Shown here piece by piece: positions 4,587 to 62,451 of a stretch of DNA of 64,000 bases. The position numbers were made by a program, and so were the translations under genes. The notes below the pieces were generated by a model. That model ran no database searches. It was not told the origin of the DNA and was given only the letters and a program-made list of their open reading frames with translations. Location of the stretch: NCBI GenBank assembly GCA_951406725.2, contig OX597834.1:6696001-6760000 (forward strand). The letters are read 5' to 3'. Numbering within the stretch: position 1 is the first letter of the stretch; every line of letters starts with the position of its first letter. The DNA comes from Octopus vulgaris. Taxonomy: Eukaryota.

Positions 4587-5118
4587 GAATTTTCGAGACA
4601 CACATGTATATATATATATATATGCATATTTGTGTGTGTGAGTGCGTGCATGTGTGTGTGTTACAGTACCTTCCTTACCTTAACATTGCATGCTAGTTGT
4701 AAATGTGTGATGCCATCATGCATGCGGTCTCCATAAAAAACATGTCTGACCATGGAACAATATTACCTTGCTTGGAAACAGGTAAGAGTTGGTGACATGA
4801 AGAGCATCCAGCTGTAGAAAAATCTGCCTCAGCAAATTCTGTCCAACCCATGCAGACACAGAAAAGCAGACGTTAAAATGGCGATGTTACAAATTTTAGC
4901 ACAAAGCCAGTAAGTTTTATGATGTGGGTTAGTTGGTACCATCAGACTCCCAGAACTAGATTGGTACTTTATTTTATTGACCTCGAGAAGGACAAAAAAG
5001 CAAAGATGACCTCAACAGGATTTGAACTCAAGACATAAAGAACTAGAACAAATACCACAAGGTATTTTTCTCTGACACAATACTATTTCAGCAAGAAGAA
5101 GAACTACTACTACTACTA

Positions 5119-5149
<31 letters not shown>

Positions 5150-6597
5150 AACAATAATAATGGTTTCAAATTTTGCCACAAGGGTAGCCATTTTGGGGGA
5201 GGACATGAGTCAATTATATTGACCTAATGCTCAACTAGTACTTATTTTATCGACCCCTAAAGGATGAAATTTTTGAAGTTGACCTTCACTGAATTTGAAC
5301 TCACAATGTAAGGACTTCATGCTGCCACACAACCTTAATAACAATCCTTTCCACTATAGGCACAAGGCCTGAAATTTGTGGAAGGGGGAAAGTTGATTAC
5401 ATTGATCCAGTATTCAGCTGGTATTTATTTTACTGATCTTGAAATGACGAAAGGTAAAGTCAACCTTGCCGGAATTTGAACTCACAACGTAGTGGCAGAT
5501 GAAATACTGCTAAGCATTTTGCCAGGCATGTTAATGATTCTGCCAGCTTGCCATCTTTCTACCACCTTAATAATGATAACACACATATGTGTGTACACAC
5601 ACACAATGGGCTTTTATGCTGTTTCTATCTACCAAATTCCCTAACAAGGAACTGGTCAGCCCAGGCCTATAGAAGAAGACATTTGTCCAAGGTGCTGTGC
5701 AGTGGGACTGAACTCAAAACCATGTGGTTTCAAAACAAGCTTTTTGTCCATGCAGCTATGTTTAACTATCCACGTAACATTCACTAGAAAATTTCGTTTG
5801 ATTCCCGGTACATTTTCTGTCAAAATTATTGAGAGTCACTGATATGTACCCATAGACATGAACGTGTTTGCTTTGACAGTTCTTCATTGTGAAGTGACAT
5901 ATAATGACCAAGTGTGTATCTAACAAAGCAATGTGAAAATTATGAAGTTATGATAATCTGCGAAATGTCTGTCCCACAGGCAATAAGAATTAGGTGAGCC
6001 ACCAGAACATAATAATCCAAGACAGAAATGAGAATCTCTTTATTCTGATGGACATTTCAATTGCTTTTTTTGCCGAAATATCAGTTGCAAAGAAGTCGAG
6101 AAACTATTACATAACAAAGGAAAATAAATGAAGATAAACATGAGAAAAACGGTTCCAAGTAATAATAAGTGGAATGGTTGGTATGACAACAAAAAACATG
6201 AATAAACACACGAGAGCCAATTGGAAGATCACAGTTTTTCACACTGTCGAAAACATAGCACGATTGTGTACAGCCTACATCCTTCATCAGATGCATTCAA
6301 TTTCATACTACAACTCATGTGGCAGACAGACAGATAGACAGACGCACACACACACACACACATACCTACACACAAAGGAGTTGTATTCTGTTGATTCACC
6401 ATCAAATACAATAGCCCAATGCACATGACAAACGAAGCTACATACGCTTAACTTTTGATTTCATGTCACGGCAAAATTATCTTGCCTCACATCCTCCGGC
6501 AGTCGATAAACTTAGTACAACTGGCTACGTCTACCTAAAATATGTGTAATTTTGTCTCACTGTCAGAAATCAATATATTTTCGCATTGACAGCTCCG

Positions 6598-7026: not shown

Positions 7027-7291
7027 ACAATTATAAAATTTTAAAAAATTGTATCTGCTATGCATGTGTATAAAGAGGGAGCCTGTGTTTAAGTTGCTTT
7101 CTAGATGAGGGCTGAGAGCATCAGGTAGATGGTGCATATGTATGTATTTGCTTGGGTAGATGTATGCAAGGGTGCAAGTGAGTATCAGTTGTGTGTGAGG
7201 ACATTATTTTCATTTTCCTTGTATTTACTTACCAGTTCTTCTGAGCTGGGTTTTACTCCAACAAATAAAAGCAGACTTTCTACTTAATACC

Positions 7292-7933
7292 TATTTCTTT
7301 ACTACCCACCTCGGCGGAATTTGATCTCAGAACGTAACGGCAAACGAAATACCTATTAAGTCGATTATATCGACCCTGGTGTGTAACTGCTACTTATTTA
7401 ATCGATCCCGAAAGGAGGAAAGGCAAAGTTGACATCGGCGGAATTTGAACTCAGAACGTAACGGCTGACGAAATACCGCAAAGCATTTCGCCCGGCGTGC
7501 TAACGATTCTGCCACTACTTAATACCTATTTCTTTACTACCCACAAGGGGCTAAACACAGAGGGGACGAACAAGGACAGACACACGGATTAAGTCGATTA
7601 TATCGACCCCAGTGCGTAACTGGTACTTAATTTATCGGCCCCCGAAAGGATGAAAGGCAAAGTTGACCTTGGCGGAATTTGAACTCAGAATGTAACGGCA
7701 GACGAAATATCTATTTCTTTATTACCCACAAGGGGCTAAACACAGAGGGGACGAACAAGGACAGACACACGGATTAAGTCGATTACATCGATCCCAGTGA
7801 GTAACTGGTACATATTTAATCAACCCCGAAAGGATGAAAGGCAAAGTTGACCTTGGCGGAATTTGAACTCTGAACATAACGGCAGACGAAATACTGCAAA
7901 GCATTTCGCTCGGTGTGCTAACGTTTCTGCCAC
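7292..7933 (-). mobile_element. SINE family A tandem array (two blocks)
   Basis: Repeated ~184-bp units; flank ctacttaatacc occurs at ~7280, ~7515 and ~7934. Confidence 0.9.
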
Positions 7934-8330
7934 TACTTAATACCATCAATTCCATGCCCTTTGTCTCAATTCTGATGCAACTCTGTCACCTTTATTGGTC
8001 ATTAAAACTGACAAGTTCATTTTGGTGACACCTGATCACAGGTTACTTGTCATTATATCAGCTTTTGCTACTTTCCCATAATGTGAGACAAAATTCAGCA
8101 CTAGCCATGGGGCTACATTGTTTTCAATGTATGTTATTTTAACTCTTATGTTTCTTTTAGTCATGGCTGTATGGTAAGAACCTTGCTTCCAAACTACAAG
8201 ACTCTGGGTTCAATCTCATTGCATGGCACTTTGGGCAAGTGTCTTCTACTATAACCTTGGGCCAACCAAAGTCTTGTGAGTAGATTTGGTAGAAGGAAAC
8301 TGAAAAAAGTCTGTTGTATATATGTATGTG

Positions 8331-14864: not shown

Positions 14865-15125
14865 ATAGGAGAAGGAAATATATTTATATGTGTAGGTGTC
14901 TTTGTGTTTGTTATCACTACTTGGCAAACCGGTGTTTGTTTGTCTACATCCCAGTAGCTTAATTGTTTGGCAAAAGAGACCAATAGAATAAGTACCAGAT
15001 TTAAATGAAAAAAATTACTGGGATTGATTTGTTTGATCAAACCCTTCAAGGAGATGCCCCAGCATGGCCACAGTCCAATGAGTGAAACCTGTACAAGGTA
15101 GAAAGCAACAGGTATATGACATGAA

Positions 15126-15349
15126 GGCGGCGAGCTGGCAGATACGTTAGCATGCCAGGCGAAATGCGTAGCCGTATTTCGTCTGTCGTGAGTTCAAATT
15201 CCGCCGAGGTCGACTTTGCCTTTCATCCTTTCAGGGTCGATAAATTAAGATCCAGTTACGCACTGGGATCGATGTAATCGACTTAATACTTATGTCTGTC
15301 CTTGTTTGTCCCCTCTGTGTTTAGCCCCTTGTGGGTAATAAAGAAATAG
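15126..15349 (+). mobile_element. SINE family A monomer with a 15-bp TSD
   Basis: Head ggcggcgagctggcaga...gagttcaaattcc; TSD aggtatatgacatga on both sides, overlapping the SINE 3' end. Confidence 0.9.
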
Positions 15350-16627: not shown

Positions 16628-17078
16628 GGGTTTCAAATTTTGGCACAAGGCCAGCAATGTCTGGGGAGTGGGTGAATCAATTTGGCAGATCCTAGTGCTG
16701 AACTGGTAATTATTTAATCGCCCCTGAAAGGGTAAAAGGCAAAGTAAATGTTGATGGAATTTGAACTTAGAATATAAAGACAGACGAAATGCCACCACTA
16801 AGCATTTTGCCCCGCATGCTAACGGTTCTGCTGGATTGCCACTTTAGGGAACGGCTATAATAATGGTTTCAAATTTTGGAACAAGGCCAGCAATCTCTGG
16901 AGTGGGGTAAATCAATTACATCGACCCCAGTACTCAACTGGTACTGATTTTAATGATCCCAAAATGATGAAAAGCAAAGCTGACCTCAGCAGAATTTGAA
17001 CTCAGAACATAAAGACAGATAAAATACCACGATGCATTTTACATGTAGTGCTAATGATTCTTCCAGCTTGCTGCCTTA
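16628..17078 (-). mobile_element. Two adjacent older family-A-related SINEs
   Basis: Share the gaatttgaactcagaa/aaaggcaaagt body but have a different 3' end (ccttgtgccaaaatttgaaacc). Confidence 0.75.
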
Positions 17079-18596: not shown

Positions 18597-18817
18597 CCTA
18601 TTTCTTTACTACCCACAAGGGGTTAAACACAGAGGGGACAAACAAGGACAGACAAAGGGATTAAGTCGATTACATCGGCCCCAGTGCGTAACTGGTACTT
18701 AATTTATCGACCCCGAAAGGATGAAAGGCAAAGTCGACCTTGGTGGAATTTGAACTCAGAACGTAACGGCAGACGAAATACGGCTACGCATTACGCCCGC
18801 AGTGCTAACGTTTCTGC
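18597..18817 (-). mobile_element. SINE family A monomer
   Basis: Homology to other A copies. Confidence 0.9.
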
Positions 18818-22260: not shown

Positions 22261-22844
22261 TTCATTTTCTTTTCATTACATGCTTTTTTCTTACTGTGTT
22301 CGTTTTTCAATTCCCCCCCACCCCCACCCCCGCCCTTTATTCTGCACAACACTGTTTCCTTAGTTTATTGAACTCAGTAGACAATAACGTAAGTTAGTTT
22401 AATGAAATTTTCCATATAAAACTGTTTAATCTGTATTTCCATTTTTGTTATTTTAATATTCCTCGTTGTTGTTGTTGTTGTTGTTATTACAGTTATTTCT
22501 TAGCCCAAAGTCACTCCTGACTGAGCAGACCTATGAACAAAGCCTTCTGGCCATCTCTCTCCTCTTTTATATTTAAGAATGGAGTGTCGCCACCGGCAAC
22601 GTCTATCCAATGCCTTCATCATGGTGTTTGTCTCTCTTAAACGGTAGTTTATTGTTCGGGGGACATTTAACTTGTAATTTCTAGTAAGTTGGCTAACTAA
22701 GGAGTTGTACCCTAGCTGTAATATTAATATCTGGGTACTTATACATTGTGCTGTGTGTTCACCATTACCCTTTGAATACAAATAGGCGAAGGGCCATGGT
22801 GAACGCTTTTCACACAAGAAACCTGAGGAAGATATATCAGATAT

Positions 22845-23579
22845 AGTGCCAAGGACTCCAAATTTGCCATCAAGATGTAGGACAAGATACTGTGATAGCC
22901 TGGACTTCAGAGGCCCACAGCTCTTCAATATCCTCCCGAAGAACCTGAGAGACCTGCATGGGGTGGATGCAGATGTCTTTAAAATAAAACTGGATCTCTT
23001 CCTGTCAGGTGTCCCAGATGAAAATATATCAGATATAGTGCCAAGGACTCCAAATTTGCCATCAAGATGTAGGACAAGATACTGTGATAGCCTGGGCTTC
23101 AGAGGCCCACAGCTCTTCAATATCCTCCCAAAGAACCTGAGAGACCTGCATGGGGTGGATGCAGATGTCTTTAAAATTAAACTGGATCTCTTCCTGTCAG
23201 GTGTCCCAGATGAAAATATATCAGATATAGTGCCAAGGACTCCAAATTTGCCATCAAGATGTAGGACAAGATACTGTGATAGCCTGGGCTTCAGAGGCCC
23301 ACAGCTCTTCAATATCCTCCTGAAGAACCTGAGAGACCTGCATGGGGTGGATGCAGATGTCTTTAAAATAAAACTGGATCTCTTTTTATGTCAGGTGTCC
23401 CAGATGAACCAACTTCACGGCAGGAGGTGCAGATGAGGGCAGCTGCATCGAACTCTCTAATGCACCAAATGGCAATTGCTAAAAAGCATTCGTGAAGTGA
23501 AATCATGTAGCAACACCAAATTGTGGGGCCCCAGCATGGCCAAAGCTCGTGAGCTGAAACTAGATAAAATAAAAAAAAA
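22845..23579 (+). mobile_element. CR1/L2-group LINE 3' end with an internal 192-bp triplication
   Basis: ORF2 C-terminus-like SLGFRGPQLFNILPKNLRDL...FKIKLDLFLSGVPDEP...RAAASNSL; 3' tail ccccagcatggcc...ctgaaactagataaaataaa. Confidence 0.85.
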
Positions 23580-30936: not shown

Positions 30937-31515
30937 ACATATGAAAAATGACATCGCTTAAATGTCAGGCATTTCTGGCTTCGCATGTCTGTGTTCTTTC
31001 CAAAACACCCTGAAAAGTTTCAGACCCCACTTCTCTGATTTCTCTATTGATGTTCTCCTTCAGCTGCACCAGGGCCTTTGGTTTATTGACACAAACCCTC
31101 TTGTTCAGGTATCCTCACAAGAAAAATCCAGGCTAGTCAAGTCTGGGGAACGTGAAGGCCAGTTGACATTGCCATAGTAGGAGATGATTCTCTCTCCAAA
31201 GCACTGCCATAGCAACTACGTCGTTTCTGTTGTGGTATGGCGGCGAGCTGGCAGAACCGTTAGCATGCTGGGCGAAATGCTTAGCGGTATTTTGTCTGCC
31301 GCTACGTTCTGAGTTCAAATTCCGCTGAGGTCGACTTTGCCTTTCATCCTTTCGGGGTCGATAAATTAAGTACCAGTTATGCACTAGGGTCGATGTAATC
31401 GACTTAATACCTATGTCTGTCTTTGTTTGTCCCCTCAATGTTTAGCCCCTTGTGGGTAATAAAGAAATAGGTATGAGCAGTTTCCCCATCTGTCTGGAAA
31501 CATGTGTGATGTCTA
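30937..31515 (-). mobile_element. Decayed DD41D (rosa/Visitor-type) transposase C-terminus, split by a SINE
   Basis: FQTDGETAHT[SINE]TTETT*LLWQCFGERIISYYGNVNWPSRSPDLTSLDF...HLSDVIFHM*; 41 residues between the last two Asp once the SINE and one TSD copy are removed. Confidence 0.8.
31239..31469 (+). mobile_element. SINE family A monomer, TSD ggtatg
   Basis: Homology; interrupts the DD41D frame. Confidence 0.9.
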
Positions 31516-33149: not shown

Positions 33150-33571
33150 ACCTGGCAGAAACGTTAGCACGCCGGGCGAAAAGTGTAGCCGTATTTCGTC
33201 TGCCGTTACGTTCTAAGTTCAAATTCCCCCGAGGTCGACTTTGCCTTTCATCCCTTCGGGGTCAATAAAGTAAGTACGAGTTATGCACTGGGGTCGATAT
33301 AATCGACTTAATCTATTTGTCTGTCCTTGTTTGTCCCCTTTGTGTTTAGCCCCTGTGGGTAGTAATGAAACAGGTATTTCGTCTGTCTTTATGTTCTCGA
33401 GTTCAAATTCTGCCGAGATTGACTTTGCCTTTCATCCTTCCGGGGTTGATAAATTGAGTACCAGTTATGCACTGGGGTCGATGTAATCGACGTAATCCAT
33501 TTGTCTGTCATTGTTTATCCCCTCTGTGTTTAGCCCCTTGTGGGTAGTAAAGAAATAGGTATTTTGTCTGT
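33150..33571 (+). mobile_element. SINE family A tandem dimer plus the start of a third unit
   Basis: Junctions gaaacag|gtatttcg and gaaatag|gtattttg. Confidence 0.88.
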
Positions 33572-33975
33572 CTTTATTACCCACAAGGGACTAAACCCAG
33601 AGAGGACAAACAAGGACAGACAAACGGATTTAGTCAATTACATCAACCCCAGTGTGTAACTGGTACTTAATTTATCGACCCTGAAAGTATGAAATGCAAA
33701 GTCGACCCTGGCGGAATTTGAACTCAGAACATAATGGCAGACGAAATACCTATTTTTTTTTAACACACAAGGGGCTAAACACAGAGAGGACGAACAAGGA
33801 CAGACAAACGGATTTAGTCGATTACATCAACCGCAGTGCGTAACTGGTACTTAATTTATCGACCCCAAAAGGATGAAAGGCAAAGTCGACTTCAGCGTAA
33901 TTTGAACTCAGAACGTAATGGCATACGAAATACGGCTACACATTTCGCCCGGTGTGCTAACATTTCTGCCAACTC
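33571..33975 (-). mobile_element. SINE family A tandem dimer, tail-to-tail with the previous array
   Basis: Reverse complement of the A units. Confidence 0.88.
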
Positions 33976-34780: not shown

Positions 34781-34932
34781 GGTGGCGAGCTGGCAGAAAC
34801 GTTAGCGCACTGGGCGAAATGCGTAGCTGTATTTCATCTGCCGTTACGTTCTGGGTTCAAATTCCGCTGAGGTAGACTTTTCCTTTCATCCTTTCGGGGT
34901 TGATAAATTGAGTACCAGTCACGCACTGGAGT
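34781..34932 (+). mobile_element. SINE family A, 3'-truncated
   Basis: Shares flank and private substitutions with 35323-35550. Confidence 0.85.
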
Positions 34933-35227
34933 TGAACGACAAATTAACAAAATTCCTTTATTTTCCGTCATATTCCCTAATTGCGAAGGAATAAGGAGTA
35001 TATTATGCCGCTTTCTCATCAGGAAAAGCAAGGAACTTATGTCAACATCAAGATGCAATTTAAAAACTTTTAGATGACTGCTCACACGGAGCCCATAGTG
35101 GTAAAAATATTCCTTATTCCTTCGCAATTAGGAATATGCAGCCTTCAATCCCACTGCATGGCACCTTGGGCAAGTGTCTTCTACTATAGCCTTGGGCTGA
35201 CCAAAACCTTGCGAGTGGATTTGTTTA

Positions 35228-35322: not shown

Positions 35323-35550
35323 GGTGGCGAGCTGGCAGAAACGTTAGCGTGCCGGGCGAAATGCGTAGCCGTATTTCATCTGCCGTTACGTTCTGGGTTC
35401 AAATTCCGCTGAGGTCGACTTTGCCTTTCATCCTTTCGGGGTTGATAAATTGAGTACCAGTCACGCACTGGGATTAATGTAATCGACTTAATCCATTTCC
35501 CCTTGTTTTTCCCGTCTGTGTTTAGCCCCTTGTGGGTAGTAAAGAAATAG
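35323..35550 (+). mobile_element. SINE family A monomer
   Basis: Homology to other A copies. Confidence 0.88.
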
Positions 35551-43447: not shown

Positions 43448-44521
43448 TCTCAGAGCTGGAGCTTTTCAACAGAGTCCCATAAATTAGTTTTCAAAATATT
43501 TTGGTACATCTCTGCATTCATTCTACCATCTATCACATGTAAATTGCCAGTACCATTTGCAGAGAAACACCCCCACACCATTATGTTGCCACTTCCAAAC
43601 TTTACGGTAGGAATTGTGCTTTTCGGCGAATAGGTGTTACCATCTTTCCTCCAAACATGGCTACGTGAATTTTGTCCAAACAATTCAATTTTCGACTCAT
43701 CTGTCCATATAACATTTTCCCAGAATGTATCAGATTTATCTTTATGTTCGTAAACAAATTTTAAACAGGCATCTCTATTCCTTTTAGTCAACAGTGAAGT
43801 TTTTCTTGGAGCGCGTGACTTCAGTTCATTCCTATGAAGTTCATTGCTGATTGTTCGTAGTGTAACACTAGTCCCTGAAGCTAACAAATCTTCTTGCAAC
43901 TCTTTTCTGGTGATCATTGCATTTTTTTTTCGATTCTTTGCTTCAACTTTTCTTAAAGATCTAGGGGAAATCTTGCATGGTGCACCGGATCTTATTCTGT
44001 TTTCAACAGTTCCCGATTTTTTATATCTTTGAATAAATGAAGATATGGTAGAAAATGGAATACAAAAGGTCTCTGATATTTTCCTGTAACTTTTACCTGC
44101 TTTCCACTGTTCAATAATTAAGTTTTTCACTGAATTTGTGAGTTCTTTACTTTTCGTCATTATTACGATACTACTTTATGTTGTCTCAGTGCTGAATGGA
44201 GTAGCTAGCGTTTTGACACTTAAAAATGACAACTGATAAGATTATTGGAACAAACGAATATGTTCTAGTAAAAAAAAATTACTTTAACAGTATTTTGTGG
44301 CATAGAAAATTATAAATTTATTTTGTACAAATAATTTTTTCACTCCTAAATACTTATAATTGTATATAAATTCCTTAGTTACTATAATTTATTAGTTTCT
44401 TTTGCATATTCTTAGTTTATGCATGTGTATGCAAATATAGTATTGGTATATCATTTATGTTCATTAGAAATTAAATAAATAAATAATTTTGACATGTATG
44501 AATGTTTATTTCCCCCCACTG
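43448..44521 (-). mobile_element. Tc1-like transposon, 5' part (3'-truncated)
   Basis: TA|CAGTGGGGGG terminus at 44521 inside (TA)n; contains the transposase ORF. Confidence 0.9.
43450..44160 (-). pseudogene. Tc1 transposase, uninterrupted 236 aa, lacking the second D and the E
   Basis: Paired-like HTH, RSGAP, PRKTSLL, WTDESKIELFG, TVKFGSGNIMVWGCF; cut off at a SINE boundary. Confidence 0.92.
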
Positions 44522-47134: not shown

Positions 47135-47500
47135 ATGATATTACACTGCATGAATGATGAACAGAAATGAGCAGAGCTGAAGGAATGAAAAAAAATACCT
47201 GGGTATGAGAAGAAGCAGTTGTAGGATGCAAGAGTGATGGCTATAAAAGGTATACGAATAATGTTTACAAGTGATTGAATCTGTGCCAGGAGGAGATTCT
47301 TGTGGATGGATCCAATGGTAGATGGTTAAGAAAGACACAGGCCAGAGGTGATGAGTTACTAGACTCATCCAACCCATGCCAGCAGGAAAAACAGACATAA
47401 GGTGTAGATGATGGGAATGATGGTGGTGCTGCTGGTGGTAGTTGTGATAGTGGTAATACGCTTCTGGCTAGTTTTTATTTTGCTATCAAAAGGGATTACT

Positions 47501-48142
47501 TATTTCTTTACTATCCACAAGAGGCTAAACACAGAGGGGGCAAACAAGGACAGACAAAGGGATTGAGTCGATTATATCGACCCCCAGTGCATAACTGGTA
47601 CTTATTTAATCGACCCCAAAAAGATGAAAGGCAAAGTCAACCTCGGCAGAATTTGAACTCAGAACATAACGGCATACAAAATACCTATTTCTTTACTACC
47701 CACAAGGGGCTAAACACAGAGGGGGCAAACAAGGACAGACAAAGGGATTGAGTCGATTATATCGACCCCCAGTGCATAACTGGTACTTATTTAATTGATC
47801 CCGAAAGGATGAAAGACAATGTCAACCTCAGCGGAATTTGAACTCAGAACGTAGCAGCAGACGAAATACCTATTTCTTTACTACCCACAAGGGGCTAATA
47901 CCTATTTCCATTTCTTTACTATCCTCAAGGGGCTAAACACAGAGGGGACAAACAAGGACAGACAAACAGATTAAGTCGATTATATCGACCCCAGTGCATA
48001 ACTGGTACTTATTTAATCAACCCCGAAAGGATGAAAGGCAAAGTCGACCTTGGCGGAATTTGAACTCAGAACGTAACGGAAGACGAAATGCAGCTAAGCA
48101 TTTTGCCCGGCATGCTAACGTTTCTGCCAGCTCGCCACCTTA
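47501..48142 (-). mobile_element. SINE family A tandem trimer with a 13-bp TSD
   Basis: TSD aaaagggattact at 47488-47500 and 48143-48155; one head and three bodies. Confidence 0.92.
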
Positions 48143-48397
48143 AAAAGGGATTACTGGTCAAACTAAAGACATGGTACCAGATACTGAATGAGGTGTGTAG
48201 TGAGATTGAACCCAGAACTACAGAGCTGTAATGTGAACTTAATTACACAGCCATAATTACAAAACTTGACTACTGGGATAGATCCATCCAACAAGAAACC
48301 CTCAAATGTTTGCTGTTCACTGAGCAAATAGTTGGAACTGTCACGACAGGAATTCTTTGATCATAGGTTTGCTTAATCAGGATTGATTTGACATAAA

Positions 48398-51230: not shown

Positions 51231-51638
51231 GTGAGCTGGCAGAAATGTTAGCACGCTGGGCAAAATGCGTAGCCGTATTTCATCTATCATTATGTTCTGA
51301 GTTCAAATTCCGCCGAGGTTGACTTTGCCTCTCATCCTTTCGAGGTCGATTAAATAAGTACAAGTTACTGGGGTCGATATAATCGACTTAATCTGTTTGT
51401 CTGTCCTTGTTTGTCCTCTCTGTGTTTAGCCCCTTGTGGGTAGTAAAGAAATAGGTATTTTGTCTGCCGCTACGTCCTGAGTTCAAATTCCGCCGAGGTC
51501 GACTTTGCTTTTCATTCTTTCAGGGTCAATTAAATAAGTAGCAGTTATGCACTGGGGTCAATATAATCGACTTAATCCGTTTATCTGTCCTTGTTTGTCC
51601 CTTCTGTGTTTAGCCCCTTGTGGGTAGTAAAGAAATAG
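51231..51638 (+). mobile_element. SINE family A tandem dimer
   Basis: Junction aagaaatag|gtattttg at ~51455; TSD-like gaaagYagtgagc. Confidence 0.9.
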
Positions 51639-51920: not shown

Positions 51921-52149
51921 AGTGAGCTGGCAGAATCGTTAGCACGCCGGGCGAAATGCTTAGTGGTATTCCGTCTGCCGTTATGTTCTGGGTTAAAATT
52001 CTGCCAAGGTCGACTTTGCCTTTCATCCTTTTGGGGTCGATTAAATAAGTACCAGTTACGCACTGGGGTCGATATAATTGACTTAATCCGTTTGTCTGTC
52101 TTTGTTTGTCCTCTCTGTGTTTAGCCCCTTGTGGGTAGTAAAGAAATAG
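51921..52149 (+). mobile_element. SINE family A monomer
   Basis: Homology to other A copies. Confidence 0.9.
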
Positions 52150-52245
52150 GTACCTATTGTGCTGACAGTACTTGAGGATCTAAGAGCTAAAAGCAAGGTA
52201 TTGCATTTTACAGCTTGTTGAAACGCCTTAATTTCGCAAAAAGCT

Positions 52246-53074
52246 ATGCTCAATGGATCAGATGGTAAAACATACATCAGAGATCGCCCAACTGAGGAAT
52301 TCAATCTGAAATGCTTGAAAAAGATGGCGCAAGTGGGTGGTAGGGGTGTGATGGTGTGGACAGCATCTAGTAGCTTTGGTGTTGGCCCTCTAGTTAAATT
52401 TGATGGAAAGTTAAATAGTGTAGGTTATATAAACCTACTAAAGGATAATGTTGTGCCATATTTGACTCACCAAATGCCTCCTGGGGCTATTTATCAGCAG
52501 GACAATAGTCCTGTGCACAAAGCCAAAAAGGGTATGGAATTTTTTGATCACCATAATATTGACATAATCGAATGGCCTTCCCAGAGCCCAGATCTGAATC
52601 CGATCGAGAACTTGTGGAATTACGTTTCCAAAACAGTCCATGCTAAAAAAACCATCTAAAACAATTATTCGATTATATCAATGAAATATGGCAAAACATT
52701 CTCATAGAATTTTGTAGTCACTTAGCGTATTCAATACCGAGGCATTTCTCAGCCGTTATCAAGAATAAGAGCTACAGCACAAAGTACTAATATGTATTTC
52801 GTTCTTGTTGCTCATTTTTGGTACAATCTTAAGCTTTAAATAAAATTATAATGATACGGACTTAAACTAATTTTGCCGGTAAATTTGAAACGTTTATATT
52901 AATTTAGCATTAGAATTCTTCAAGTTGTAAAAAAATAGTTATTGTCTTCATCATTCAAAAGAGAAGTAATTTCTGCATTAGGTGTAAAAGATAGAATTTG
53001 TATGGGGTTAGTAACAAAATATTTTGTAAGAAATAGAACTTTTATCATTGGTCTTAAATTTATTTTCGCCAGTG
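52246..53074 (+). mobile_element. Tc1-like DD34E transposon, 3' half with IR-DR-type terminus
   Basis: GGRGVMVW...YQQDNSPVH...WPSQSPDLNPIENLW (34 aa between D and E), frameshift near 52655; ends cagtg|TA; inner and outer direct repeats at ~52858 and ~53050. Confidence 0.9.
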
Positions 53075-55631: not shown

Positions 55632-55864
55632 AAGGTGGAGAGCTGGCAGAAACGGTAGCACGCCAGGCAAAATGCTTAGTGGTATTTCGTCTGCCGTTAT
55701 GTTCTGAGTTCAAATTCTGCTGACGTCCACTTTGCCTTTCATCCTTTCGGGGTCGATATATTAAGTACCAGTTACGCACTGGGGTCGATGTAATCAACTT
55801 AATCCGTTTGTCTGTCCTTGTTTGTCCTCTCTATGTTTAGCCCCTGGTGGGCAATAAAGAAATA
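55632..55864 (+). mobile_element. SINE family A inserted in a B head, 14-bp TSD
   Basis: taagaagcttgctt on both sides. Confidence 0.9.
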
Positions 55865-56440
55865 AGAAGCTTGCTTCCAAACTAATTCTTCAAGATGGTG
55901 CTTCCGCATGGCCACAGTCTAATGACTGAAACCAGTAAAAGACAAAAGATGAAAGAAGATTCTGTTACAAGTCAAGGTCTTCCCCCTTAACTGCCCCCTT
56001 TTTATCCCTCAAGACTTTTCTGCAGTCCCCTGGATCTCTTCTTCAATTGGCAATATTCTTCTTCAATAAGGAGCCATGAGCAAGCAGAATCAATAACACA
56101 CTGGGCAGTTTGTCTGTCTTTGCATTCTTGGTTCAAATTCCACCAAGACCTCTCAACACTTCAGGGTCAATAAAATAAGTACCAGTTAACCAATGGGGTT
56201 AATGTAATCAGCTTACCTGCTTCCTTGAACTTACTGGAATTACAACCATGTTTCGTGGTCTGCTACTTCAACGGCTCCTTTAAAGGATCCAGTTTGCTCA
56301 AGACATCATCAGGAGGAACCACGTCTGGTTCCAAATTCTGAAACCAATAGTCTCCTTCAATTAATATTTTAACGATGCTAATTACTATTTGCTGATCAAT
56401 ACTGGACTATTGAGCTATTCGTGATTGGTTTTTAGTCATT

Positions 56441-60096: not shown

Positions 60097-60509
60097 AATG
60101 TCTATGACAAATATTAAACTTAGACATATTTAGAAATTTGTAGAGATTTTATTATAAATGAGGAAAAATGTCTGCTAAAGTGTAAAAGTGCAACTTAAAG
60201 AATAAACATGGAAAATTGAAAAGGAAACTGACCTTACATCAAATGTTCTGTTTCTATAAACTGATGGAAGCTCAACAACAAATTGTATTTGATGCACAAT
60301 GCATAAGCCTCTCTGCAACACAGCAAAGACGATCATGCAAACAACAAATAAGAACTCAAAAGACAATAGAAGTACAACTACAGAAGCGGCAACATGCCAA
60401 CAAGACAAGGCAGTGCTGCAAGTAAATAAATAAGTTGTGTCCAACCCATGCTAGCATGGAAAACAGACGTTAAATGATGATTATGATGATGATGACGATG
60501 ATGACGATG

Positions 60510-61109
60510 ACGGCAAGCTGGCAGAATCGTTAGCACGCCGGGCGAAATGCTTAGCAGTATTTCGTCTGTCGTTACGTTGTGAGTTCAAATTCCGCCGAGG
60601 TCGACTTTGCCTTTCATCCTTTCGAGGTCGATAAATTAAGCACCAGTTGCTTCGTGGGGTCGATACAATCGACTTAATCCGTTTGTCTGTCCTTGTTTGT
60701 CTTCTCTGTGTTTAGCCCCTTGTGGGTAGTAAAGCAATAGGTATTTCGTCTGCTGCTACGTTCTGAGTTCAAATTCCGCCGAGGTCGACTTTGCCTTTCA
60801 TCCTTTCAGGGTCATAAATTAAGTTACCAGTTACGCACTGGGGTCGATATAATCGACTTAATCCATTTGTCTGTCCTTGTTTGTCCTCTCTGTGTTTAGC
60901 CCCTTGTGGGTGGTAAAGAAATAGGTATTTCGTCTGCCGTTACGTTCTGAGTTCAATTTCCGCCGAGGTCGACTTTGCCTTTAATCCTTTCGGGGTCGAT
61001 AAAATAAGTTACCAGTTACACACTGGGGTCGGTGTAATCGACTTAATCCGTTTGTCTGTCCTTGTTTGTCCTCTCTGTGTTTAGCCCCTTGTAGGTAGTA
61101 AAGAAATAG
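60510..61109 (+). mobile_element. SINE family A tandem trimer inside (GAT)n
   Basis: Units start gtatttcg at 60557, 60741 and 60925 (period 184); array ends aaatag at 61109. Confidence 0.93.
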
Positions 61110-62451
61110 ATGATGACGACGATGACAACGATGATGATGATGATGATGATGATGAAGTTTACACAAATAATAAAATCACAGAATGAGCCCCGAATTCACA
61201 TGAGGACTCCATGGAAACAAGCAACCGACAATCGAGTCACAATGGATATGAATCATAATTCTTTATTCAACAACAAAGAGGCCAAAGCATTTATCACAAC
61301 AGATTAATTAGAGTTAACACTGAGGCAAAATCTAATGTAAAAAAAAAAAAAAGTGGAGATAGCAGAAGGATTTGATAATAAAAAATCAATAAGCAGAGAC
61401 CATGAGAATTGTTGCCCAAGTTACCAAAAAAAAAAAAAAACATTTCAAGTAACCTCAAGTAAATAATATATAAGTACAAGGACCTTCATGAAATGATGTC
61501 CCTTAAAACAAACCTGAATATCAACACAGTTTAATCCATTTGGTAGTCATGGCATTGTCAAGGGAAATCAGGATCAATCCTAATAGAGTAAGACCCTCAC
61601 AGCAAAATCTGACTTAAAACTTTGGTAGGAGAAAAGAAAATATGTTATGTAAAATTGTAAGAAGAGAAAAGCAACGAAAGAAGCTATTTTTCCTCAGGGA
61701 AATAAAAAGGAAAAAAGATAAAAATTATTTTTTCTCCTTGAAAGGGGAAAAAAAAATGACTTAAGTAAATCTTATCAAGAAAGTGATGGCGGATAAGATG
61801 TTTGGAAAATTCTATCGTGAGAATAATTCATTTGAAACAAAATACAAAAAAAAACATTTTATAAAGATATCAACAACAATAACAACAGCAACAACAACAA
61901 CAACGAAAATAAACAGTTGATGTCATTCCAACATAAAAGAAATGAAAACACATTGGAAGAAAATATGAAACAAAAGCACAGAGCACAATCAAAGCGCCGA
62001 GTCTGTGGAAAGGATAAATAAACTGGAATAACACCAAAAACATGGATCAACAGAACCATTGAGGAATTGGGCAATGTAATATAGATTACAAGTGGGAATC
62101 TCACAAAATTGACAGTGTCCTCAATTTCTTGATGAATTCATAGAAACTTTGGCAACAATATTCAATGAATGTGTTAACAGACCAGAATTCCCAACAGAAT
62201 GGTTACTTTTGGAGAAAACATTATTATTTCTGCAAAACAAACCAACTGTAAATATTTATTTATCGTGTTTTTGTTTCTCTCGCTGTCTTCCAAAAAATTT
62301 AGGGAACTGGTTCTGAAAATGCCATTAATTTTTTTCTGTAACCAAATGTTTCAAAAGTTATGCTTATAATAGTGATATTTGAGTTTTTGGAGAATTGCGC
62401 CGTAATAAACAGTCCTTTTAACTGCACATCAAGAATTATATTTTCATATAT

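What the first reader, a model, noticed from the sequence alone, without database searches (positions are those of the whole stretch)
60510..61109. SINE A multimerises through a fixed AG|GT junction: possible circular or multimeric RNA template
Seen: independent loci (7527-7933, 33150-33571, 33571-33975, 47501-48142, 51231-51638, 60510-61109) each have one 5' head followed by 2-3 copies of a ~184-bp body. The bodies are almost always joined as aagaaatag|gtatttcgtctg. The unit starts GT and ends AG, keeps the B-box-like gagttcaaattcc, and lacks the A-box head. The family has no simple-repeat tail. Inference: local slippage would not give the same junction everywhere. The template is either a master copy with a tandem 3' region, or a circularised 184-nt RNA copied by rolling reverse transcription.
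Basis: partly seen in the sequence, partly recalled or inferred. Interest (0 to 1): 0.75.

Follow-up and report, generated by a model that had tools for sequence, protein, structure and literature searches.

The report
Short repeat that stacks inside itself
Copies of a very common short jumping repeat carry one head and one to three 184-letter bodies always joined at the same point, likely because new copies land on a short motif inside the repeat's own head rather than being copied from an RNA circle.

Summary
In detail: one head plus 2-3 bodies of 184 bp; 8 of 8 full-unit junctions in the window are in one register, and the same joint leads in public contig sets. The AG|GT circle reading is not supported. 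The joint is ambiguous over GGTATT, the head supplies no splice acceptor (0 of 17), there is no ribozyme, the closed unit folds no better than shuffles, and no array lacks a head. GGTAT(T) looks like the family's landing site: 9 of 14 3' ends run into GTA(TT), 4 of 8 target duplications hold GGTAT in the upstream copy, one site was used twice (triple duplication), and truncated tails sit at the junction itself. The SINE carries this motif at its own head-body boundary, so copies likely insert into each other, the second head being lost by in-register annealing (inferred). Against a simple version: units of one array share private variants (p about 1e-4), so added bodies often share a source with their neighbour. 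The scan's unchecked notes already describe Tx1-driven self-nesting of a SINE on other DNA of this genome; they changed my reading. New variant of a known kind.

The parts
60510..60556 (+). SINE head with A-box-like motif at 60519-60529 (box consensus recalled); present once per array
60557..60740 (+). body unit 1 (B-box-like motif at 60581); its first letters GTATTT are the proposed landing site
60741..60924 (+). body unit 2; shares a 1-base insertion with unit 3 that unit 1 lacks
60925..61109 (+). body unit 3, ends at the tail AG; closest of the three to the majority (3.8%)
60474..60510 (.). GAT/GAC microsatellite flank; continues at 61109-61155, so a target duplication cannot be read
7280..7944 (-). 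two elements head to tail (head + 2 units; head + internally deleted dimer) separated and flanked by three copies of a 12-bp target duplication that begins GGTATT
33152..33571 (+). head + 2 units + 13 bases of a third; abuts the next array tail to tail
33572..33975 (-). head + 2 units
47488..48155 (-). head + 3 units with a 13-bp target duplication around the whole array
47870..47907 (-). extra piece at the unit 1/2 junction: a 27-bp 5'-truncated tail with GTATT on both sides, plus 6 repeated tail bases
51231..51638 (+). head + 2 units, about 13-bp target duplication with one mismatch
15125..15349 (+). monomer; target duplication holds AGGTAT in both copies
18598..18817 (-). monomer closest to the majority (2.7%), followed by GTATT; reference for the read comparison
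31238..31470 (+). monomer; 6-bp target duplication GGTATG
35323..35550 (+). monomer followed by GTAT; no duplication found
51921..52149 (+). monomer followed by GTA; 16-bp duplication with 2 mismatches
55634..55865 (+). monomer with 14-bp duplication that does not start with GTAT (counter-example)

Best explanation
This is a tRNA-type SINE whose 3' ends often lie at GGTAT(T) and which carries that motif at its own head-body boundary, so new copies likely insert into existing copies at that base, and each insertion is predicted to add one 184-bp body behind the old head. Inferred steps: (1) a LINE enzyme (Tx1 clade according to unchecked scan notes; not seen in this window) nicks the lower strand at the motif and primes reverse transcription at the SINE tail; (2) the upper strand is cut about 12-15 bases further on, as the target duplications at ordinary sites imply; (3) at a SINE target that overhang equals the start of the body, so it anneals to the new cDNA in register and the incoming head is lost, leaving a seamless unit; (4) short cDNAs leave a truncated tail between two copies of the motif; (5) the motif is rebuilt, so the site can be used again. 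Because neighbours often share private variants, many additions must come from the same source locus soon after the first insertion, or multimers are themselves transcribed (no T4 stop in most units) and moved whole.
For: Shown: 9 of 14 3' ends continue with at least GTA (binomial p 4e-13; 6 of 11 after leaving out the partial third unit, the one-mismatch case and one of the paired 7.9-kb elements). In 4 of 8 readable target duplications the upstream copy holds GGTAT, so the motif was in the target before insertion. 24 of 51 GGTATT and 19 of 28 GTATTTC sites in the window lie inside this family (partly circular, junctions are counted), enough to explain about 9 of 23 events landing there. One target was used twice, giving three copies of a 12-bp GGTATT duplication. 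A 27-bp truncated tail sits at a junction between two GTATT copies. In run X23, 25 and 28 reads show a 67-base tail joined to the first 12 bases of the body, the size of a target duplication (may be one locus). 6 of 6 arrays have exactly one head. In both trimers units 2 and 3 share private marks that unit 1 lacks, as expected if the latest unit is added next to the head. Known: R1 elements stack by inserting into their own duplication, and cDNA annealing to the upper strand gives precise 5' joints (PMC2718515, passages); Tx1-Mar gives SINEU a target inside another repeat (PMC4494074, passages).
Against: Independent donors would make units of one array no more alike than units of different arrays; they are more alike (2.6 against 1.2 shared derived variants, p=1e-4; 6 of 16 doubletons within arrays), so a same-source assumption is needed. 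No age order from last to first unit: the last is the most diverged in 3 of 6 arrays. No double-headed insertion seen. No LINE domain found among 18 of 65 long frames scanned, and no foreign element at the site in this window or in the 20 loose ends shown (522 not shown). GGTAT at targets could come from RNA-DNA pairing alone, without a specific nuclease. 4 of 8 duplications lack GGTAT upstream.
Confidence: 0.55

Rival explanations
1. Tandem source loci: head + 2-3 bodies is transcribed as one RNA; reverse transcription starts at any tail, using the GUAUU that follows it to pair with the target, and in-register switching or conversion keeps units alike within a lineage.
For: Target duplications flank whole arrays; units share lineage and private marks; 15 of 21 units have no run of 4 T; explains GTAT run-ons and one head per array. 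One variant (column 16) is in unit 2 of 3 of 6 arrays and in no other array unit.
Against: Position-specific sharing is not significant (p 0.14 and 0.23, 14 units, low power); column-16 C is common (28-29% of contig depth) and also in a monomer. Does not explain the first dimer, the triple duplication or truncated tails at the junction. Probably a secondary route rather than an exclusive rival.
Confidence: 0.2
2. Template jumping in one insertion event: when the cDNA reaches the body start, its end pairs with the GUAUU at the 3' end of the same or another SINE RNA and copying restarts.
For: Explains same-source units, roughly geometric counts (6 monomers, 4 dimers, 2 trimers) and small junction rearrangements. 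LINE-1 ORF2p jumps templates and extends 5-6-nt primers in vitro (PMC10830420, passages). Older relatives end in GTATT(ATT)n, so the 5-base match may predate the arrays.
Against: Needs a strong stop or cut at one internal base; headless arrays should then occur (0 of 6). 21 mismatches at common marks over 10 within-array pairs, including a double mark in the 7.9-kb dimer.
Confidence: 0.13
3. One reading: a 184-nt headless RNA is closed into a ring and copied round and round, with a final switch to a head-bearing RNA.
For: The unit's two ends can pair (6-bp stem, reached by 0.45% of shuffles, plus a 5-bp stem). Units 2 and 3 are alike and unit 1 differs in both trimers.
Against: No ribozyme; no splice acceptor at the head-body boundary (0 of 17); purine-rich 3' end, so not an intron end; circle no more folded than shuffles; no headless or permuted starts; at most 3 units; dimers share marks with the head-linked unit. 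The end pairing is equally read as tail-to-target pairing.
Confidence: 0.06
4. DNA-level duplication after insertion (unequal exchange or slippage), as in SINE-derived satellites.
For: Gives shared private variants; a 79-bp tail repeat appears amplified in X23 reads; described in reptiles (PMC10702118, part 1 and Discussion).
Against: Within-array divergence (7-13%) is close to between-array (mean 12%), so no late duplication; short reptile arrays vary in unit boundaries, these do not; a 5-base match is too short to fix one register at every locus.
Confidence: 0.06

Closest known systems
Tx1-Mar LINEs and SINEU of crocodilians (PMC4494074, passages read)
   Same: A SINE inherits a preferred target inside another repeat from its LINE partner.
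   Different: There the target is a Mariner transposon; here it would be the SINE's own head, and the product is a seamless tandem body.
Tandem R1 arrays in Drosophila 28S genes (PMC2718515, passages read)
   Same: Re-insertion into the rebuilt target duplication; precise 5' joints by cDNA annealing to the upper strand.
   Different: Autonomous elements in rDNA, whole copies separated by the duplication; here a non-coding passenger whose target is part of itself.
Head-to-tail multimers of Dip, B1 and B2 SINEs (PMC8466645, passages read)
   Same: Up to about half of copies in multimers; authors leave open insertion versus dimeric template.
   Different: Full-length units each with a head; here one head and an internal, base-exact junction.
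SINE-derived satellites of scaled reptiles (PMC10702118, part 1 of 5, passages and Discussion read)
   Same: Tandem part-SINE units with a longer terminal unit reaching a SINE end.
   Different: Long, subtelomeric, ascribed to DNA amplification; short loci vary in boundaries. Here dispersed 2-3-mers with target duplications and one register.
Metazoan non-LTR retrozymes (PMC7229834, passages; bioRxiv 10.64898/2026.07.22.740005, abstract)
   Same: Dispersed tandem units of 150-450 bp proposed to be copied from small circles.
   Different: Defined by a hammerhead in each unit and highly self-paired circles; neither found here.

Membership tests
tRNA-derived SINE | short, non-coding, dispersed, high copy number | tested here: met
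   230-bp monomer; young family covers 4720 bp (7.4%) of the window; 80771 and 14147 contigs laid in two runs
tRNA-derived SINE | variable target-site duplications | tested here: met
   8 of 12 ends examined, 6-16 bp
tRNA-derived SINE | tRNA-related head with A and B boxes | tested here: inconclusive
   box-like motifs present by recalled consensus; ARAGORN finds no tRNA, Rfam none
tRNA-derived SINE | RNA polymerase III transcription | not testable with these tools
   only contigs of guessed RNA runs were available
SINE mobilised by a target-specific Tx1 LINE | shared insertion site and 3' tail with a Tx1-clade LINE | not tested
   no LINE domain in 18 frames scanned; rests on unchecked scan notes, which do not give the base or prove it is this family
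SINE mobilised by a target-specific Tx1 LINE | non-random target sequence | tested here: met
   GTA(TT) after 9 of 14 ends; GGTAT in 4 of 8 upstream duplicates
non-LTR retrozyme | hammerhead ribozyme in each unit | tested here: not met
   no CUGANGA core (motif recalled) in 21 of 21 units, both strands; no Rfam ribozyme
non-LTR retrozyme | highly self-paired circular RNA | tested here: not met
   circular fold z -0.28 to +1.04, 54-61% paired, 4 units; the RNA itself not testable
back-spliced or intronic circular RNA | acceptor AG before and donor GT after the unit, pyrimidine tract at the 3' site | tested here: not met
   0 of 17 head-body boundaries have AG before GTATTT; tail is purine-rich
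Deu/Nin or other SINE superfamily | conserved central domain | tested here: inconclusive
   resemblance recalled; motif searches of two papers' supplements (one file each not searchable) and the library found nothing
SINE-derived satellite | long homogenised arrays (4 or more middle units) | tested here: not met
   2-3 units, 7-13% apart

The most novel reading that the evidence does not exclude
The headless 184-nt body is cut from SINE RNA, held end to end by its terminal stem and ligated into a ribozyme-free circle that a LINE enzyme copies round more than once: a SINE with a circular RNA intermediate. A milder novel reading (about 0.15) is that the tail palindrome GAAAUA-GG-UAUUUC pairs with both strands of the SINE's own head and guides the insertion.
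Probability: 0.06. Interest if true: 0.8.

Novelty: new variant of a known kind. Interest (0 to 1): 0.5.

Why it matters
A passenger element that carries its own landing site would feed its own spread and turn ordinary retrotransposition into exact tandem repeats, a direct route from SINE to satellite-like arrays. With very many copies, it offers a natural data set for how the upper strand captures cDNA at the 5' joint. It also warns that back-joints at this junction in RNA data will mimic a circular RNA, since the joint exists in DNA.

Tried and rejected
Splice or intron reading of AG|GT: rejected. Ribozyme: Rfam gave 12 weak matches, all in or touching the flanking microsatellites, none a ribozyme. 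tRNA gene: none. Monomer folds not beyond shuffles (z -1.9 and -1.0). Metagenome scan with a 20-base motif: 7 of 7 loci match only the motif, chance hits. Sequencing runs: no RNA holder listed; X15 and X17 are guessed RNA and contigs cannot show a circle. Raw-read runs X22 and X23 laid only 18 and 223 of 12.9 million reads each, far below the window's repeat density, so they were not used for frequencies. Scan notes by sequence: nothing. Position-specific variants: not significant in 14 units; no genome-wide test was obtained, so this is open. The partial third unit at 33559-33571 was first read as sharing an older variant with unit 2, but 6 of those bases overlap the inverted neighbour's tail, so I dropped it. 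An intron-containing pre-tRNA origin of the head, with a cut near the boundary, was considered from recalled tRNA numbering; the predicted site is off by several bases; untested. Literature: no description of a self-targeting SINE with a seamless internal junction in searches; the Octopus vulgaris repeat paper (PMC13282606, parts 1-2 of 3) does not describe SINE structure, and its library on Zenodo, Repbase and Dfam could not be seen and may already record this.

Full report
What is there. The stretch 60510-61109 is a 47-bp head and three 184-bp units in a GAT microsatellite. The window holds six such arrays (four dimers, two trimers), six monomers, a truncated tail, a copy cut by the window end, a rearranged element next to the 7.9-kb dimer, and about ten older relatives that share the head and up to the first 118 bases of the body but have other tails. 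The young family covers 7.4% of the window. All 8 full-unit junctions are in one register. The organism is probably an octopus; this is a recalled resemblance that the scan's notes share, not a result of my calls.

Beyond the window. No assembly was available, so genome-wide counts could not be made. A monomer was laid on four public runs. Among the 15 joints shown (72 not shown), the 183-184 back-joint is held by 89 contigs in X15 and 21 in X17, and by 1 and 2 raw DNA reads in X22 and X23; each other joint shown has 1-2 contigs. In X15, 565 contigs carry a SINE tail upstream of the body start. X15 and X17 are only guessed to be RNA, and the joint exists in DNA, so these data say nothing on circles. 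X22 and X23 laid 18 and 223 of 12.9 million reads, too few for frequencies.

The junction is not a splice joint. The joint fits over about five letters on either side, so AG|GT is one of several ways to draw it. Back-splicing of a monomer would need an acceptor AG before the body start; 0 of 17 head-body boundaries have one. There is no hammerhead core in 21 of 21 units (motif recalled), no Rfam ribozyme, and four units folded as circles score z -0.28 to +1.04. No array is headless or permuted (0 of 6). One point remains for a circle: the unit's ends can form a 6-bp stem, reached by 0.45% of shuffles.

The junction motif is a landing motif. 9 of 14 3' ends continue with GTA, GTAT or GTATT (p 4e-13; 6 of 11 after leaving out three doubtful cases). 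Target duplications of 6-16 bp were read at 8 of 12 ends, and in 4 of the 8 the upstream copy also holds GGTAT, so the motif was in the target; the other 4 do not. The SINE has (G)GTATTT at its head-body boundary, and nearly half of all GGTATT sites in the window lie in the family (24 of 51, junctions included). At 7280-7944 two elements are flanked and separated by three copies of one 12-bp duplication starting GGTATT, so a rebuilt site was used again. At 47870-47907 a 27-bp truncated tail lies at a junction between two GTATT copies. In X23, 25 and 28 reads join a 67-base tail to the first 12 bases of the body, the size of a target duplication; these reads share variants and may be one amplified locus. 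An older relative ends in GTATT(ATT)n after a similarly spaced tail, so the motif may be a remnant of a simple-repeat tail (inference from short homology).

Lead from earlier notes. Before my reading was template jumping (60%). Unchecked notes on other pieces of this genome describe a Tx1-clade LINE, and SINE copies, inserting at one base in a SINE head. They give neither the base nor proof that it is this family. I tested the self-nesting signatures above; I could not test the LINE, and found no LINE domain in 18 of the 65 long frames scanned.

Mechanism (inferred). A lower-strand nick at the motif primes copying from the SINE tail. The upper-strand cut about 12-15 bases on leaves an overhang equal to the body start, which can anneal to the cDNA in register and drop the incoming head. 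The result is head + new body + old body with the site rebuilt. R1 elements stack by re-using their duplication, and annealing of cDNA to the upper strand gives precise 5' joints (PMC2718515, passages). Tx1-Mar confers a target in another repeat on SINEU (PMC4494074, passages).

Results against this reading. Units of one array share more derived variants than chance (2.6 against 1.2 per pair, p=1e-4), and 6 of 16 doubleton variants lie within arrays, 0.76 expected. Four of six arrays have a private shared mark (one of them a single insertion seen only in a pairwise alignment); two have none. Yet pairs also differ at common marks (21 over 10 pairs), including a double mark in the 7.9-kb dimer. 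So neither fully independent donors nor strict re-copying fits. Within-array divergence (7-13%) is near between-array (mean 12%), so the arrays are about as old as the family, and no age order is seen. Position-specific sharing is not significant (p 0.14, 0.23) with little power. The self-targeting model therefore needs same-source additions or re-transposition of multimers; tandem sources (0.2) and template jumping (0.13; PMC10830420, passages) stay open and can act together with it.

Comparison and verdict. It works like Tx1-Mar/SINEU targeting combined with R1-type stacking. It differs from Dip and B2 multimers, which keep a head per unit (PMC8466645, passages), from reptile SINE satellites (PMC10702118, part 1, passages and Discussion), and from retrozymes (PMC7229834, passages; bioRxiv 10.64898/2026.07.22.740005, abstract). 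I found no description in ten searches; Repbase, Dfam, the Zenodo library of PMC13282606 (parts 1-2 of 3 read) and one supplement file each of PMC4824008 and PMC4758252 (passages read) were not seen and may bear on the family's name and novelty. Real feature, circle unlikely, self-targeted stacking most likely; new variant of a known kind, interest 0.5.

Noticed in passing
window 7280-7944 (-): The two stacked elements start at the same truncated base and share head variants, so they seem to come from one source or one event; the downstream one is a dimer with two internal deletions at short matches.
   Followed up: partly
window 33559-33577: Two arrays meet tail to tail through a 6-base overlap, forming a long imperfect inverted repeat; could be a deletion between inverted copies or two-sided priming.
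   Followed up: no
window 15128-15349 and 31241-31470: These two monomers share a variant near body position 120-130 that is complementary to the tail plus the following GTAT and folds with it.
   Followed up: partly
run X23: A 79-bp tandem of the young tail module plus 12 bases of body start; its 5' edge coincides with the point where older subfamilies switch to other tails. A second short tail tandem with a 15-base spacer also appears (12 reads).
   Followed up: no
window 60697-60746 and equivalents: In sense orientation the tail has a pyrimidine-rich stretch ending in TTTAG, 25 bases before a GT at the junction: a possible cryptic micro-exon in multimers (judged by eye, not scored).
   Followed up: no
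window 22828-23408: 192-bp unit in 3 copies at 97% identity inside open frames; no convincing Pfam match.
   Followed up: partly
window 43453-44175 (-) and 52222-52656 (+): Tc1/mariner transposase fragments (HTH and DDE domains).
   Followed up: no
window 34784-34940 and 35326-35550: Two nearby copies share several variants and the same upstream flank, suggesting a local duplication.
   Followed up: no
window 4960-5555 (-) and 16690-17075 (-): Older relatives with other tails also lie in head-to-tail clusters; 55641 is inserted in the head of a second abundant SINE family.
   Followed up: no
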